Under the pieces are notes generated by a model. It worked only from the letters and a program-made list of their open reading frames with translations, did not search any database and was not told where the DNA came from. A stretch of 62,925 bases of DNA, filler included, from Kipferlia bialata (taxonomy: Eukaryota), in NCBI GenBank assembly GCA_003568945.1. It is 5 parts of 5 records of this genome, joined end to end, with 100 filler letters (N's around TTAATTAATTAA, not from the genome) between each part and the next. Parts side by side here need not be neighbours in the genome. Positions count along the whole stretch, not along the records: positions 55,598 to 62,925 come from BDIP01000923.1; 4 more parts are not named here. One strand, 5' to 3'. How positions within the stretch are numbered: the stretch's first letter is position 1; each line of letters opens with the position of its first letter. The position numbers and the translations under genes are program-made. This document shows, in pieces, positions 41,608 through 62,850 of the stretch.

Positions 41608-41707
41608 NNNNNNNNNNNNNNNNNNNNNNNNNNNNNNNNNNNNNNNNNNNNTTAATTAATTAANNNNNNNNNNNNNNNNNNNNNNNNNNNNNNNNNNNNN
41701 NNNNNNN
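41608..41707. other. Artificial scaffold spacer
   Basis: N44-TTAATTAATTAA-N44. Confidence 0.98.
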
Positions 41708-55497: not shown

Positions 55498-55597
55498 NNN
55501 NNNNNNNNNNNNNNNNNNNNNNNNNNNNNNNNNNNNNNNNNTTAATTAATTAANNNNNNNNNNNNNNNNNNNNNNNNNNNNNNNNNNNNNNNNNNNN
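55498..55597. other. Artificial scaffold spacer
   Basis: N44-TTAATTAATTAA-N44. Confidence 0.98.
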
Positions 55598-55648
<51 letters not shown>

Positions 55649-56007
55649 CGTCCATTACCCTATATGTTATCATGTGTATATGTAGTATACAGTCCCCACC
55701 TGAATATGGGCAGGGGTGGCTGTATCTGTCTGGTGGGTGATACCCCATCCCTCCCTGACCCCTGGCCACAGCAGGACAGAGCCCCTCCCATTCACACACA
55801 GGGTTACTGAGATACACCCAGGTAATACTCTTCCAACTAGAAGCGGCAGACCTTCTTATTCTCCACTATCAGGTCAATATACACTCAACTGAAGAGTCAG
55901 TGACTGATTCAGTGCAGCAAAAGGGTTCTGTTTGTGGGACATCTTGAGCGTATCAAATGCTGCTTCTCTTCTTATCATTCATTGCTCCTGAGAATGCTTC
56001 CCCCTAG

Positions 56008-59000
56008 GGGCCTTGGCCCGTGTCCCATATGCAGAGGCCAGAACCCAAGTATAGCGCTATACCCCTCTTATCCAGAGGCAGAGCGACAGCTGGACCGCAT
56101 CCTCAGTTCCATTGAGGAGGAGTGCCGAGGGTGGGTGTCTCAGTCTGGACCTGAACCATCCGTGTCATATCCTGGTGCTGATCCTGATAGTACTGCAGAA
56201 CCCTTTGGAGGGGCAGGCGGAGTGCTTGGCGTCCTCGAAGAAACTGTAGGTGTGGGTTGATATATTCATTCCTGTGTAGATCTATGACCATATGTCTCTT
56301 CTCTTCCTGTCTGTATACACTCTATTCTCATAATATTCCTGTTCCATGCCGGTAATGTGAACTCTACGGCTCCACATATATATATACATATAGGTATTAA
56401 TATCAGCATAACACATATTGTATATTATGTTTTCCTTCCATTCCTGATTCCAGGTCCATATCAGTTGATCAAGAGTGGTGTCTGTTCCCGACTTATGTCC
56501 CTTGTTCAGCAGTATGGACGGTCACTCGCAGTGGTCGAGGTGTGCTTTGCGAGCTTTCTGCGAATGAGCACAGGTATGGCTGGCTCTGTATTTGTGACTC
56601 TCTCTCTCTCTCTCTCTCTCTACAGGTGACACTGTGATATCCCCCGCCCCCCTATTTCTGTCCCACCCTCCCATATTTGTATTTCTATATACACATATGC
56701 TCTGACGATTGACCTTAGCAGGCCAAGATGACAGAATTGAAATTCCTGTATCTCTCTATGTCTCTCTGTAGATGAGTATTCTATTACGTATTACATAAAT
56801 ATGATTGATTCTGACCCTCTAGGAGATTTGGATGCCCACTGCCAGTGTGGCAATACCTCTCACCAGGCAGAGTTCATGAAGTATGGTATGTATGACTGGT
56901 TCAGCTCATATTCGTATTGAATACATTCAGGCGATCTTTTCAATATGTGTTGTTTATATGTGAGTCTATATACACACTAATATATATGTCTATATACATA
57001 CGGACATAGATCAAATATCTGTCAAGTAATACAGCTAGGACCCCTATCTTACTGTAGATGACCTGACCCGGCAGTTTCTGCTAGACAGTGGCCTCATCGC
57101 CACCCTCATCGATGTCACTACCCCTGAGACATGTCCCTTAGACACTATCAACGGGGCAAGGGTCACATACTATGCTCTGTCGATACTGGAACAGATGGCA
57201 CGGCTGGGTGAGTCCTAAGCCTCTTTGTGGGAATTCTCAAATACACACCAAAGTGTATTTATATATATCACTTATCCCAGAGGCTGCGCTGCCCGTGTTG
57301 ATTTCACCACCCCTGCAGCAGCTGTACAGAGACATCATCGACCTGGACGCACCTAACCTGAGACCCCTGAAGAAGAAGGCCCTAAAGGTGGTTGTGAAAG
57401 TGGTCACTGCAAGGAGCAGACCCGGCAGTCACATTGGTGAGGGTGGGTGTATACATGCATGTATGAATACTGCGCTCATACTGCTCTCACACTCCAGATG
57501 ATCTGCCTGAAGCTGCTGCCTTTATGGCATCTCTCTTACCAAGAGTCATCCATGAGGCCGAGTGCAACGTGGACGAGAACCCCCCAAGCTACCTGTTGAC
57601 TCTGCTGAATACACTTTGCGTGTGCATATGCAACAAGGGTACGGCATTACTGTCATATTAGTATCACCCCTCTAATGTGAAATATGTGGTAGTATTCCAC
57701 TGGTATTAATGTGAAAATAGCTATCCATAACGAGGTGTGTTGTTGGGTGTGAGTATGTATCACTGATAGTCTATGTCTGACCACAGACCTTGCCGATGCT
57801 GCTGTCTCTGGGGGTGCCCTGCCCCTATGCATCAGGGTACTGGAGGCCCAGCTGGAAGACATGCATGCATGTATGGCGGCAATCGTCTGCATAGATCGAA
57901 TCTCCAGATTCACACACGGTATGTGTAATCGCGTTGATTTGTTTCCCTTCTTTCTTCTGGAAGGAACTTACACCTCAGGGAATCGCAAGAGAGTTCTCCC
58001 TGGCTCCGATACTGCCCTTGCCGGTGAGATCATACCTGTCCTCATCTCTGCATTTAGAGCCTGGCCACTGTGCTCTCCCATTGTAGAGGATGTGCTGGAA
58101 ACCGTAGTCCTGCTGAGAAGCCCAGGTGGGTATGTGATGGTAGCGTGGAATCAGTTCATTCGTGAATACACTTGATATGAACTATTCCACATATTGTCTT
58201 TGTAGTCTAATTAGACTGTGTTTGAGGTAGATATCACTGATACTAGAGACCAAGGAGATTCTGCTATCCGAACAGGTTCATATACTTGCCATGGACGCTC
58301 TGTCAGAGCACTTGCAGGTATGCCTGTGTCCAGTGTATTCAGTATATATTCATACTATATATGTGTATAGCAAGATTTCTACACGCATATGTATGTGTGA
58401 CACATGGGACTGTTTGATAGTTACTGACCTCAGGATACAGAGGTTGTCCCCAAAACCATGGGGTTGCTAGTCACACTTCTAAAGGGTACGGTATACACTG
58501 ACAATAACCCGCGTCAGAGTCGATTACGACCTTAATTCCCCTTCAGTATTAGGTACTCTCAATGCTTAACACCCAGATCAACCAGATGTCCGCAACTACC
58601 TGATGCAGGACTTCAGTCTCCGCACAGTGATGGCTGCACTCAACTTCCACATCGACCACCCGGATGTGGCAGCTAGCGTCATGTTCTACCTGGGTACTCT
58701 GATGCAATTTCGTACGTATCCATAATACTTTGTTATCCATCATTGGTGAAGAGATATCAACCAGCAATGATATAGTTCACAACAGGCAACGACTATCCTA
58801 AGCTGAAGAAGTATGACATTCCAGGATGTGTCCAGAGGTAGGGTTACTGTATGTGGTATATTGATCGTCTTCCCCACTCAGTCTCAGATATGGAAAGAGG
58901 GTGCCTGGAAGTGCATTTGGTATGAAGCTGGCAAGGAAACTGCAGGTAGGTCAGGAGACCGAATGATACACTTCGGAGGGACAGAGTCGTCACCCCAAGT

Positions 59001-59818
59001 ATTATTAATACACATCGGATACTATCGTTCTCAACCATATTCTGATGTAAGCAAGCTGCGTTCATGGGTGAGATGTCCAACAACAAGATCATGTTGTCTG
59101 GTCAGACCGAATACCTATCCGACAGCGACATTGAGACTCTGATAGAGGAGTACCTCCGCCTACCCTTCCACGTCAGCAGGGAGGCCATGGGGAGGCATCC
59201 TGTCCCCCAGAGCTGCCGTACTAGGCTGCCCCCCAACCATGCTAGGGTGATCTACCTCCCTGACGTCGGTGAGGCTCAAGTGTCAGGGTTCTGTACTACC
59301 CTTGAGAACAATGGACTGTCCGTTGCCAACATCATGGCTGCTAAGAACCCCAGTGTCCTAAAGAGGGAGCTTGCTACAAGGCCTCAGATACTGGTCTGTA
59401 CGCACCGTGCTGTGCTAGCGAAGGACAATACGAAGCCTCATAGGCTCCACATGTGCATGTGGAGAGAGATGGTCAAGATGGGAGTTGTCGTTAGGGCATA
59501 TATGTTCCTGGATGAGGTTGGTATCCATATTTGACCGTGTGTATATTTGTTCTCGCACACTTATGTCAGGACAGTGTTGCTACTGATGAAGCAGTTGCCC
59601 GTAGCATGTACACTCAGCTTGCACACACTGTGGGTACACACTACCTGGAGAAGCAGCCAGCTGAGACACGGAAGGAGATGTGTGAAGAAGGTATTTGAAA
59701 GTTGCATATGTACTTTACCCTCGACGTGTATCTCACCCCAGGCAACACCCTGCAGTGCCTGCCAGCAGGACGGTACTTCGAAGAGGTGTGGGGCGGTGTA
59801 TGTCTTACATACGAATGA
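56008..59818 (+). CDS. Armadillo/HEAT-repeat protein with C-terminal degenerate DEAD-box-like domain, multi-exon, 5' partial
   Basis: ARM-like helices LIKSGVCSRLMSLV, FLLDSGLIATLIDV, AVSGGALPLCIRVLEAQL, EIIPVLISAFRAWP, TVMAALNFHIDHPDVAASVMFYLGTL; phase-consistent splicing into the 59064 ORF, ending YFEEVWGGVCLTYE* (TGA 59816-59818). Confidence 0.68.
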
Positions 59819-59960
59819 GTGAAGTGCATTCTTTCTGAGGACCCACACTATGTAACTCACATGCCATTCAGGGTGATGAATGGAGGGATGAGAACCCTCA
59901 CAAAGATCATTTGGAAGCAAAACTTGCTGTGTTTTCTTCCATTTCTATTCTATGTGTGTG

Positions 59961-61927
59961 TCATTGGTCATAAACCACACGACATGAGCATACTCTCTCT
60001 TGCTTGTTACAGCGTTGGACAGTGATCAGCACCCGATGACCCTGGGCTAGCCCCACTTCAATAACCTCTCTATGGTGTACACTGCTGTAGGTGGTACTAG
60101 GCATCTGGATCTCGGCCTCCTATATATCAGATATGATCATCATACTACATATAGCCAGCGGAATCAAGGCCATGAACAAGATACATAAATGTTAGTCACA
60201 GTAATGTAAATGTGACACTTGCAATTGCAATGTGCATGGGGATAGCCATGACGAGAACCCATGTTGCTACACCAGCGCCTCCATCCGTACCTCTCCCTCA
60301 GCGTTTAGGCAGACCACATAGTCGGTGTCACTCTCGGCATACAAGACCTGATCGTGGGATGGATACATGCATATTTGCATATATATAGCGAGTGTGTGAG
60401 AGAGAGAGAGCGAATGATGTTTTACTCTCGGCACACAAGACCTGGTAGTTAGGAGAATGTGATATATTGTGGTATATGAATAATGTAGATTCAGCCTCGG
60501 CATACAAGCCCTGGTAGTAACGACTTCTAACTCAGGAGAGTAAGACTATAGCTAGTATGGAGTTTATAGAAAATAATTTGTTTCATTCTGTATGCATGAG
60601 GCACTTGACTGTGGAACGGGTACAATTACACACATATATACGGAGAGCATATATGGAGAGAGAGTAAGAGAGAAATATCCCTACTCTCTGTATACATGAC
60701 CTGATGATTTTGTGATCAGAAGGGACATGGACGAAGACAGATATGCATTCACCAAGTACTCTGCCTACTCACACAATGGTGATCATCCGAAGGTCACTAT
60801 CTATACTATACAGTGTATAGTCTCTATATACACAATCACCTCAAGCAAGTTAATATATTACCCTACTTCTTACTCTGTCTCTTCACATACTGCGATGCAT
60901 ACATATATACATACACATTTCATATACATATATACATTGTATAGACACTGATACATACCTCATATTCTGTCTCTTCACACACTGCCATGTGTATCTCACT
61001 GTTTGTGCTGTTGACAGTGATAGCACGCTCTGGCTTCACAACCTCTCCTGTCAGCCAGTCCTAGGGGAATGAGGTATCTTCTCAATGCGATTAGAAATCA
61101 AAGAATAGACACTGTATACACTTTGTACCTTCCCTGTGATATGCCTGAGTCCCAGCCTGTCTCCCTCTGTGATGTACCAATACATACACACACATATATA
61201 CATTCATTATCATTACTAATATATATACACACTGTACCTTTCCCGTTAGGTATGCCCTGGGTCTCAGTCTGTCTCTATGATATATATATATATGTATGTA
61301 TTACTACCCATACTATGTACCTTCCCCGTTAGGTATGCCCTGGGCCTGCGTCTGTATGTCTCTATGATATATATATATATATATGTATGTATGTGTTACT
61401 ATCCATACTATGTACCTTCCCCGTAAGGTATGCCCTGGGTCTCAGTCTGGCCAGGTGGGGGGGAGGGGCAGGGGACCCCCTCCTCCTACACACCCTACCA
61501 TAGCAGGGGCCACACCAGAACAGATGATGCACCTGCTCCATCAGGGCTATGAGTGATTGGGGGGGGGGGGGATAATGGGAGTGATAGAACTCGCAGTCAT
61601 CTGTAAGATACCCTCTCCCCTGTAGATAACCCTTCTAGCGTGTTAAGTATATATATGTGTAGAATACATAGAATACATATATGTATACTAGCATGGGTGA
61701 CATGTCCCTACCTCAAGCACCTGTCCTTTGACTACGACCAGGTCCCCTATCTTCAGCTCATACAGGGGGAAGGACTCCTCAGTACACGGCTGCATCCTGG
61801 GTTGACAAGGAGAGGAGTGAATAAGGGGGGGGGGGGGCGGAATACTACAACACACTTGTGACACAGACAGCCACACACATTGACAAACACGTTACGCACA
61901 ACAAACCCCTTACCCAGCTATACCCAT
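59961..61927 (-). CDS. Divergent eIF5A-like paralogue lacking the hypusination motif (6 exons, ~177 aa)
   Basis: Exons 61927-61914, 61796-61712, 61532-61416, 61060-60959, 60347-60291, 60119-59961 give MGIAGMQPCTEESFPLYELKIGDLVVVKGQVLEVHHLFWCGPCYGRVCRRRGSPAPPPHLARLRPRAYLTGKDWLTGEVVKPERAITVNSTNSEIHMAVCEETEYEVLYAESDTDYVVCLNAEGEEAEIQMPSTTYSSVHHREVIEVGLAQGHRVLITVQRCNKQERVCSCRVVYDQ*. This is colinear with the eIF5A SH3-like and OB domains. Confidence 0.75.
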
Positions 61928-62373
61928 CTCAACAAAGATATGTAGAGTTAGTGGCAGTATAATTGTGGTGGCCTACCTGGGTGCCACAACTTGTGGTCAG
62001 ACAATTTGGGACTCGACCAAAAATATATCTGTTCCCATATTTTCACCTAGGGGGACAGAGTGGTTATATGGGATCTCTAGAGTGCTCTAGAGTTGAGTGG
62101 AGAGAGCAGCTTCATAGGCGGGGATAAACCCCTTGAGTTTTTGCTCCCTCAAGCACACCCGGGTAAAATCTCAAGCACCGGCACACCGTTCGTTGACCCT
62201 TTTTGTGAAACGCTGTGCTTGAGTGTCCAGCCTTACCACAAGAGAGACTAACGCATCGAGCTGGTGATGTGTTAGAAGTAGATCTAAGGGTGTAGAGTCA
62301 ACTTGTGTCACACACATCAGTGTGGCGTTCAAGTACTCTCTCCTGACTCTATACCACCAGACGCACACACCAC

Positions 62374-62850
62374 ATGCCGGCTGTTGACCCAACCTTGTTG
62401 GAGAGTGTGTGGGGTTCTGAGGCTCTGGCCGAGGGTGGGGAGGCGCCCTCTGACGCTGACTTTGCGGCAGTAGAGAGTGCCACTGGGTACGGCCTGCCCG
62501 AGTCCTACAAGGCATTCATGAGGCTGCACAACGGGGGGTACCCCCTGAGGAGTGACTACAACCCCAACGAGGAGGAGGACCCCTCCTCCCAGGTGGAGAC
62601 CTTCCTCAGTGTGGACAGTCTAGTGGAGGAGACTGAGTTCTATGGGGAGGAGTGGGGGTACCCGGCCATTGGATTAGTCATCGCAGAATGCCCCTCGGGT
62701 GGCCACGACCTCTTTATGCTGCACTACCCGGCTGGCAGCACAACAGAGCCCAGTGTGATACACGTGGACCAGGAATTGGACTACCGCTGCACCACGGTGG
62801 GAGAGACATTTGCAGAGTTCCTGGCTGGGCTGAGAGAGGCCCAGGAGTAA
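62374..62850 (+). CDS. SMI1/KNR4 (SUKH) family protein, intronless, bacterial-type
   Basis: PSDADFAAVESATGYGLPESYKAFMRLHNGG..EEWGYPAIGLVIAECPSGGHDLFMLHY..EPSVIHVDQELDYRCTTVGETFAEFLAGL: hallmark SMI1/KNR4 motifs. Confidence 0.88.
   Translation: MPAVDPTLLESVWGSEALAEGGEAPSDADFAAVESATGYGLPESYKAFMRLHNGGYPLRSDYNPNEEEDPSSQVETFLSVDSLVEETEFYGEEWGYPAIGLVIAECPSGGHDLFMLHYPAGSTTEPSVIHVDQELDYRCTTVGETFAEFLAGLREAQE

What the first reader, a model, noticed from the sequence alone, without database searches (positions are those of the whole stretch)
59961..61927. eIF5A paralogue with the hypusine loop replaced by a WCGPC-containing insert
Seen: the spliced protein follows eIF5A end to end (LKIGDLVVVKGQVLEV ~ LRKxGxVVIKGRPCKIV; AYLTGKDWLTG ~ VHLVGIDIFTG; EYEVL..DYVVCLNAEGE ~ DYQLI..GFLSLMxxxG; GHRVLITVQRCNKQERV ~ GxxLLVTVLSAMGEE). 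The invariant STSKTGKHGHAK loop is absent and replaced by HHLFWCGPCYGRVCRRRGSPAPPPHLARLRP. Established: the hypusinated Lys is essential to eIF5A; WCGPC is the canonical thioredoxin active-site sequence; fungal HEX-1 is a precedent for a neofunctionalised non-hypusinated eIF5A paralogue. No C-terminal PTS1 is present here (ends YDQ). Inference: a repurposed eIF5A fold with a redox- or metal-binding loop, possibly a ribosome regulator. The supplied ORF track shows only fragments of it.
Basis: partly seen in the sequence, partly recalled or inferred. Interest (0 to 1): 0.85.

Follow-up and report, generated by a model that had tools for sequence, protein, structure and literature searches.

The report
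Hypusine-less eIF5A with a rebuilt loop
A free-living protist splices an mRNA for a protein predicted to have the shape of the essential translation factor eIF5A, but the loop that carries eIF5A's uniquely modified lysine is replaced by a longer arginine- and cysteine-rich loop with no lysine, so it likely acts as an unmodifiable ribosome-binding regulator rather than as normal eIF5A.

Summary
Real and expressed. The gene is Kipferlia bialata KIPB_004355. One 717-nt contig of an RNA-like run joins six exons at GT-AG introns, including the 61712/61532 junction, so WCGPC is exonic. The start is 61795 (172 aa); 61927 lies in intron 1. eIF5A ancestry holds: profile score 26.5 bits against 4.2 at best in shuffles, and an independent model has TM 0.71-0.72 to eIF5A. 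The 7-residue hypusine loop is a 24-residue loop with no lysine. The fold is under selection (32 of 36 hydrophobic core columns kept), but only 6 of 31 near-invariant eIF5A residues remain. The basic-N/acidic-C charge pattern and the Arg27-equivalent survive, with the positive charge now in the loop. No relative was found, so cysteine conservation cannot be tested. Thioredoxin chemistry is unsupported. Whether Kipferlia also has a canonical eIF5A is unresolved. Best reading (0.35): an unmodifiable E-site-binding regulator. Close rival (0.3): a HEX-1-like role outside translation. New variant of a known kind.

The parts
61977..62092 (-). Exon 1, 5' untranslated; holds an in-frame 13-codon uORF (62038-61997) that stops 21 nt of mRNA before the main ATG
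   Evidence: contig piece and joint; frames
61712..61796 (-). Exon 2: start ATG at 61795; residues 24-51, first strands of the N-terminal barrel, with K38 (yeast Arg27 equivalent) and K46
61416..61532 (-). Exon 3: residues 52-90; strand beta3, the replaced loop and strand beta4
   Evidence: both junctions; strands 48-58 and 84-91
61440..61511 (-). 24-residue loop (59-82) in place of the 7-residue hypusine loop: no Lys, net charge +6, RRRG at its middle, Pro-rich, C61, C66, H77
   Evidence: model confidence below 50 at residues 60-70
61503..61517 (-). WCGPC (residues 57-61), at the end of strand beta3 and the start of the loop
   Evidence: exonic
61061..61415 (-). Intron 3 (355 nt), with three diverged tandem copies of the last 28-31 nt of exon 3 plus its donor; skipped in the contig
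   Evidence: (D1, D4)
60959..61060 (-). Exon 4: residues 91-124, end of the N-terminal barrel (5-residue insertion) and linker
60348..60958 (-). Intron 4 (611 nt), with one diverged copy of the exon 4 end and two of the exon 5 start
   Evidence: (D3, D9)
60291..60347 (-). Exon 5: residues 125-143, OB-fold strands
59880..60119 (-). Exon 6: residues 144-195 (stop 59963-59961, ends YDQ) and 3' UTR to at least 59880
   Evidence: Pfam eIF-5a weak hit over residues 121-190, E 0.06

Best explanation
This is a spliced, lineage-restricted gene for a protein predicted to keep eIF5A's two-barrel shape but lacking the hypusine lysine, and it likely works as an unmodifiable ribosome E-site binder that occupies eIF5A's site on idle or stalled ribosomes instead of promoting peptide-bond formation. 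Shown: transcript, exon structure, eIF5A ancestry, loss of the lysine loop, selection on the hydrophobic core, preserved charge pattern. Predicted: the fold. Inferred: origin by duplication of the cell's own intron-bearing eIF5A gene; docking of the acidic C-domain on uL1 and of K38 on the P-site tRNA or rRNA; the RRRG tip of the 24-residue loop standing in electrostatically for hypusine but being too long for the pocket beside an accommodated tRNA CCA end, so that it would block or park the ribosome; C58, C61, C66 and H77 folding the loop round a zinc ion or a disulphide, which could make it oxygen-sensitive.
For: Ancestry and fold: (TM 0.71-0.72 over 145-147 residues, the Atlas's own model). 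Selection on the fold: 32 of 36 hydrophobic columns stay hydrophobic against a median of 20 and a maximum of 28 in 60 shuffles; 0 of 500 neutral simulations to 25% identity stayed stop-free; terminal branch 2.13 against at most 0.82 for 32 canonical sequences. Charge: N-domain +6 (canonical +4 to +7), C-domain -8 (canonical -6 to -13), all of the +6 in the new loop; K at the Arg27 position, which is R or K in 32 of 32. In yeast, Arg27 contacts the P-site tRNA, basic beta3-beta4 loop residues contact 25S rRNA and domain II inserts into uL1 (PMC4770232, passages). Precedent for a longer loop with an unmodified Arg tip in a paralogue: bacterial EfpL (10.1101/2024.04.15.589488, passages). Intron 2 sits at the RPCK|I/V phase-0 position found in 8 of 116 other eIF5A loci.
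Against: Only 6 of 31 near-invariant eIF5A positions are kept (seven of the 31 are the lost loop, and one match is the start Met), so most of the ribosome- and DHS-facing surface has changed. The N-terminal extension that binds uL1 and eL42 in yeast is cut to 13 residues before the LK motif (canonical median 26, range 5-43). Without the loop the N-domain is neutral. EfpL's loop is 2 residues longer than EF-P's; this one is 17 longer than eIF5A's. The loop has no confident model. No relative exists to show conserved surface residues. The shared intron has about a 0.2 chance probability (9 recurrent phase-0 sites in 157 codons, 4 introns; arithmetic), and introns 3 and 4 miss common sites by one codon. 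No ribosome binding was tested.
Confidence: 0.35

Rival explanations
1. A HEX-1-like case: the duplicate left translation altogether, and the two barrels now serve as a structural, self-assembling or protein-binding scaffold, with the loop as a new binding surface.
For: Loss of 25 of 31 near-invariant residues with the core kept is the pattern expected when the old binding partners are gone. HEX-1 is an eIF5A homologue (E 6e-10 from a canonical eIF5A) that self-assembles into the Woronin body (PMC3713238, passages).
Against: The charge pattern and K38 are kept. No PTS1 (ends YDQ), unlike Hex1. No sequence kinship to HEX-1 (0 PDB hits at E<=10). The model scores Z 14.5 (rmsd 2.8, 141 aligned) on eIF5A against 9.7 (rmsd 4.7, 128 aligned) on HEX-1, though that model was built from an eIF5A alignment and leans that way.
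Confidence: 0.3
2. A hypusine-independent, working eIF5A: the arginine tip replaces hypusine as in EfpL and relieves stalling without DHS, DOHH, spermidine or oxygen, beside or in place of a canonical factor.
For: RRRG lies at the middle of the hairpin, where the lysine sits in eIF5A. The charge pattern is kept. EfpL does this in bacteria. No canonical Kipferlia eIF5A turned up by name, and Entamoeba seems to lack DOHH (PMC7909649, passages).
Against: A 17-residue insertion is hard to fit in the pocket described in PMC4770232. An essential factor should not evolve at this rate. eIF5A could not be bypassed in yeast (10.64898/2026.07.17.739231, abstract). The search lists only the 7 canonical proteins closest to the query of 6348 candidates, so it does not show absence.
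Confidence: 0.1
3. A duplicate under weak constraint, still folded and transcribed but with little function; the loop is accidental, for example a retained intron, and WCGPC is chance.
For: Singleton. The gene's introns are full of local duplications. The stretch 61498-61447 reads GTAGGG...CCAG and is 52 nt, close to the 51-nt net insertion, and a 51-nt intron exists next door. The protein has 9 Cys, and 35% of shuffles hold some CxxC.
Against: An open frame and conserved core at about 20% identity need long-term selection. Removing the 52 nt shifts the frame; all four GTA..YAG pairs in exon 3 are 3n+1. C-runs in this window are not enriched before YAG (24% within 10 nt against 34% at random). 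Exact CGPC arises in 0.15% of shuffles.
Confidence: 0.15
4. WCGPC is a working thiol-disulphide oxidoreductase site grafted on an eIF5A scaffold.
For: Exact match to the thioredoxin motif (recalled); about 2e-5 by this protein's composition; it sits at an exposed hairpin.
Against: The motif was picked after the fact. There is no thioredoxin-like flank and no following helix in the model; the eIF5A barrels take up residues 24-195. A third Cys and three His nearby fit metal binding as well.
Confidence: 0.07

Closest known systems
eIF5A (Pfam PF01287 eIF-5a, PF21485 IF5A-like_N)
   Same: Two-domain layout end to end, hydrophobic core, basic N-domain and acidic C-domain, Arg27-equivalent, one intron position.
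   Different: No hypusine lysine or KTGKHGHAK motif; loop of 24 against 7 residues; 5-residue insertion after DWLTG; short N-terminal extension; 15-24% identity; below Pfam's cut-off (13.9 bits against 24.2).
HEX-1 (Woronin body major protein of filamentous ascomycetes)
   Same: A eukaryotic eIF5A-derived protein; that it too lacks the hypusine motif is recalled, its homology to eIF5A is shown.
   Different: No PTS1, no detectable sequence similarity, a longer rather than eroded loop, an unrelated lineage; independent origin inferred.
EfpL (YeiP), bacterial EF-P paralogue
   Same: A paralogue with a longer beta3-beta4 loop and an unmodified Arg at the tip; fold match Z 8.9, rmsd 4.7, 126 aligned.
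   Different: EfpL has three domains, a 9-residue loop and hundreds of conserved members; this has two domains, a 24-residue Cys/Pro-rich loop and no known relative.
Entamoeba invadens eIF5A3
   Same: A very divergent protist eIF5A copy, 15-23% identical to E. histolytica eIF5As (PMC7909649, passages).
   Different: That copy keeps the Gly-X-Y-Gly motif round the lysine; this one has lost it.
Thioredoxin
   Same: The five letters WCGPC.
   Different: Fold, flanking sequence and the helix after the motif are not there.

Membership tests
eIF5A | N-terminal KOW/SH3-like barrel plus C-terminal OB fold | tested here: met
   Atlas model TM 0.71-0.72 over 145-147 residues; profile 26.5 bits against 4.2; Z 14.5, rmsd 2.8, 141 aligned (alignment-guided model)
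eIF5A | Hypusine-acceptor lysine in the STSKTGKHGHAK motif | tested here: not met
   Lys only at 38, 46, 90, 99 and 182; none in the loop; junctions confirmed
eIF5A | Seven-residue beta3-beta4 loop | tested here: not met
   24 residues between C58 and P83
eIF5A | Basic N-domain, acidic C-domain and the P-tRNA-contacting Arg27 | tested here: met
   +6 and -8, K38; the positive charge lies in the new loop
eIF5A | Binds the 60S E-site and relieves stalling | not testable with these tools
   needs ribosome binding and translation assays
HEX-1 | C-terminal PTS1 | tested here: not met
   protein ends VVYDQ; Hex1 carries PTS1
HEX-1 | Self-assembly into a crystal lattice | not tested
   no complex prediction was run
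EfpL-type paralogue | Extended loop with an unmodified Arg at the tip | tested here: inconclusive
   RRRG lies at the hairpin midpoint, but the loop is far longer and has pLDDT below 50
EfpL-type paralogue | Three-domain EF-P architecture | tested here: not met
   172 aa, two domains; eukaryotic eIF5A clusters rank first
Thioredoxin | CxxC motif | tested here: met
   WCGPC at 61517-61503
Thioredoxin | Motif at the start of a helix in the thioredoxin fold | tested here: not met
   residues 24-195 are occupied by the eIF5A barrels; W57-C58 end a strand; no Pfam thioredoxin hit at E<=10
Thioredoxin | Disulphide reductase activity | not testable with these tools
   needs a thiol-redox assay

The most novel reading that the evidence does not exclude
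A eukaryotic counterpart of EfpL: an eIF5A that works on the ribosome without hypusine, spermidine, DHS or oxygen-dependent DOHH, using an arginine-tipped loop whose shape is set by a cysteine zinc or disulphide switch, so that oxygen tunes translation in an anaerobe. At the boldest, it is Kipferlia's only eIF5A, which would break the rule that hypusinated eIF5A is universal in eukaryotes.
Probability: 0.1. Interest if true: 0.9.

Novelty: new variant of a known kind. Interest (0 to 1): 0.58.

Why it matters
eIF5A is among the most conserved eukaryotic proteins and its hypusine loop is treated as invariant; HEX-1 is the one repurposed eukaryotic derivative I know of (recalled). This is an independent, expressed derivative that keeps the fold and charge pattern and rebuilds exactly the functional loop. 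If it binds ribosomes, it is a natural test of what the eIF5A body does without hypusine, and a candidate ribosome-parking or oxygen-sensing factor in an anaerobic protist. The database calls it hypothetical. No paper in the library holds both 'Kipferlia' and 'eIF5A', and searches listed no such derivative by title or abstract start. The case is limited by being one gene in one species with no function tested.

Tried and rejected
No whole genome is held, so a direct search for canonical eIF5A, DHS and DOHH was not possible. Single exons gave no eIF5A Pfam hit (0 of 6 pieces of this gene); P0001 gave no PDB sequence hit at E<=10. Homologue searches returned only the protein itself: 1 of 3 candidates, 1 of 96, 1 among 1.84 billion representatives at E<=0.001; the Atlas search without eIF5A families gave only scores under 0.9. 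The single-sequence AlphaFold model was poor (pLDDT 41) and matched nothing at E<=0.001. The alignment-guided model and its fold matches are partly circular; no thioredoxin is among the rows listed, which does not exclude it. Fragment alignments A4-A7 put the motif in the wrong place and were dropped. The search for the canonical eIF5As closest to P0001 gave 7 of 6348 candidates at E 0.86-6.6, none named Kipferlia, six of seven clusters unnamed: no verdict on a canonical copy or on a donor. Giant-virus eIF5As scored best among 25 local sequences (18.9 bits), but no test of origin was made and four coding introns point to a nuclear gene. Retained-intron origin of the loop: length fits, frame and C-run test do not; its RNA fold is ordinary (z -0.53). 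In-frame splicing that would remove WCGPC needs GTT or GTG donors, while 6 of 6 confirmed introns start GTA; one contig cannot exclude rare isoforms. The annotated 23-residue N-terminal extension of P0001 needs an intron that the contig reads through. Contig depth was not used to rank expression. Supplements of PMC5874029 (3 files), PMC8516963 (10 files) and PMC11316075 (6 files) hold no eIF5A or hypusine term; one scanned PDF in each of the last two was not searched. Three look-ups of earlier findings were empty. No complex prediction was run.

Full report
What is there. The last exon retrieved one database protein, KIPB_004355 of Kipferlia bialata (P0001, 195 aa, named hypothetical). K. bialata is a free-living fornicate with 17,389 genes and 124,912 GU-AG introns (PMC5874029, passages and section 12). 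The one run that holds the region (X1, recorded as a guess of RNA) has a 717-nt contig that lies on six minus-strand pieces with 0 other letters and 0 gaps and skips five GT-AG introns, including 61711-61533. The pieces sum to 717 nt and give a 172-codon frame from ATG 61795, identical to P0001 residues 24-195. So the gene is transcribed and spliced, WCGPC is exonic, and the loop is not an assembly error. Exon 1 holds a 13-codon uORF in the same frame. One contig cannot exclude minor isoforms.

Ancestry. Pfam gives a weak eIF-5a hit on residues 121-190 (E 0.06, under the cut-off). A profile of 13 canonical eIF5As from viral contigs scores the protein 26.5 bits; the best of 2000 shuffles scored 4.2 and the reversed sequence -1.8. 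A profile of 32 canonical sequences gives 27.0 bits; hhalign aligns 100 columns at E 8e-5. The Atlas's own model matches eIF5A clusters with TM 0.71-0.72 over 145-147 residues. My single-sequence model failed. The alignment-guided model (pLDDT 70, loop residues 60-70 under 50) ranks eIF5A first (Z 14.5, rmsd 2.8, 141 aligned), then HEX-1 (9.7) and EF-P/EfpL (8.8-8.9), but it is partly circular.

The loop. Strand beta3 runs 48-58 and beta4 84-91. Between C58 and P83 lie 24 residues where eIF5A has 7. There is no lysine between residues 47 and 89, so DHS has nothing to modify (the acceptor is K50 in human eIF5A: PMC10042821, passages). W57-C58 stand at the end of beta3; RRRG is at the hairpin's middle; C61, C66 and H77 follow. 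Exact CGPC appears in 0.15% of 20,000 shuffles, any CxxC in 35%. The exon finds no thioredoxin in Pfam or among the 4 PDB hits at E<=10. I read the cysteines as a possible zinc or disulphide site, not as a thioredoxin; this is inference.

Selection. Against 32 canonical sequences, 6 of 31 near-invariant columns are kept (seven of the 31 are the loop, which I left out of that alignment), and the terminal branch is 2.13 against at most 0.82. Yet 32 of 36 hydrophobic columns stay hydrophobic, against a median of 20 and a maximum of 28 in 60 shuffles, and 0 of 500 neutral simulations down to 25% identity stayed free of stops. The fold has been kept while the eIF5A signature was lost. Net charge is +6 in the N-domain (canonical +4 to +7) and -8 in the C-domain (canonical -6 to -13); the +6 lies wholly in the new loop, and the yeast Arg27 position holds K38. 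In the yeast ribosome complex Arg27 touches the P-site tRNA, basic loop residues bind helices 74 and 93, domain II inserts into uL1, and the N-terminal extension lies between uL1 and eL42 (PMC4770232, passages). That extension is short here (13 residues before the LK motif; canonical median 26, range 5-43).

Origin. Of 116 metagenome eIF5A loci mapped (one of 117 left out), 8 have a phase-0 intron at RPCK|I/V, the position of this gene's intron 2; introns 3 and 4 miss sites seen in 5 and 52 loci by one codon. One match has about a 0.2 chance probability, so it only mildly favours duplication of a nuclear gene. A retained intron could explain the 17 extra residues (52 nt, GTAGGG...CCAG), but the frame and a C-run test do not support it.

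Relatives. None: 1 of 96 candidates and only itself among 1.84 billion representatives. Cysteine conservation is therefore untested. A search ranking canonical eIF5As by likeness to P0001 returned 7 of 6348 candidates, none named Kipferlia. Whether this genome holds a canonical eIF5A, DHS and DOHH stays open; since eIF5A could not be bypassed in yeast (10.64898/2026.07.17.739231, abstract), I expect it does.

How it most likely works. I commit, at 0.35, to an unmodifiable eIF5A-shaped protein that docks at the E-site and, with a loop too long for the hypusine pocket, blocks or parks ribosomes rather than helping them. The support is the kept shape, charge pattern and K38, and the EfpL precedent of an Arg-tipped longer loop (10.1101/2024.04.15.589488, passages). 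Against it stand the loss of most invariant residues and the short N-terminus. Rivals: a HEX-1-like role outside translation (0.3), a weakly constrained duplicate (0.15), a working hypusine-independent factor (0.1), a redox enzyme (0.07).

Comparison and verdict. It descends from eIF5A but fails the family's defining lysine and loop; it is not HEX-1 (no PTS1; PMC3713238, passages), not EfpL and not a thioredoxin. E. invadens eIF5A3 is as divergent but keeps the motif (PMC7909649, passages). No library paper holds both 'Kipferlia' and 'eIF5A'; the other searches were seen as listings only, apart from the papers cited. PMC9992855 and PMC6679479 (passages) gave background only. The library lacks most subscription papers, and bioRxiv supplements were not seen. 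Verdict: real, expressed, a new variant of a known kind; interest 0.58.

Noticed in passing
window 61121-61450, 60861-60992, 60322-60523 (minus strand): Introns 3 and 4 hold diverged tandem copies of their neighbouring exon ends with splice sites: three of the exon 3 end, one of the exon 4 end, two of the exon 5 start. The contig skips all of them. They look like intron growth by duplication of exon-intron junctions and could act as rare alternative micro-exons.
   Followed up: partly
window 62038-61997 (minus strand): A 13-codon uORF in the same frame as the main ORF, ending 21 nt of mRNA before the start ATG; it could lower or regulate translation of this gene.
   Followed up: no
window 62374-62850 (plus strand): Intronless SMI1/KNR4 (SUKH) gene, head to head with the eIF5A-like gene (Pfam SUKH_6, E 7e-19). 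The family is known mainly from bacterial immunity proteins (recalled), so lateral origin is possible.
   Followed up: no
window about 55900-59898 (plus strand): Multi-exon gene tail to tail with the eIF5A-like gene; the contigs overlap at 59880-59898 and one 51-nt intron is confirmed. None of 8 frames hit Pfam at E<=1. The frame 59049-59531 has words that recall a degenerate DEAD-box domain, but no helicase came up in the PDB search; its protein A hits are sums of weak repeats.
   Followed up: partly
window 13809-13908, 27709-27808, 41608-41707, 55498-55597: Paired N runs about every 13.9 kb suggest the window is several short scaffolds joined, so neighbours left of 55598 are probably not linked to this gene.
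   Followed up: no
L001-L017: 17 viral-contig loci carry canonical eIF5A with an intact hypusine motif, more than the seven viruses reported in PMC9992855 (passages).
   Followed up: no
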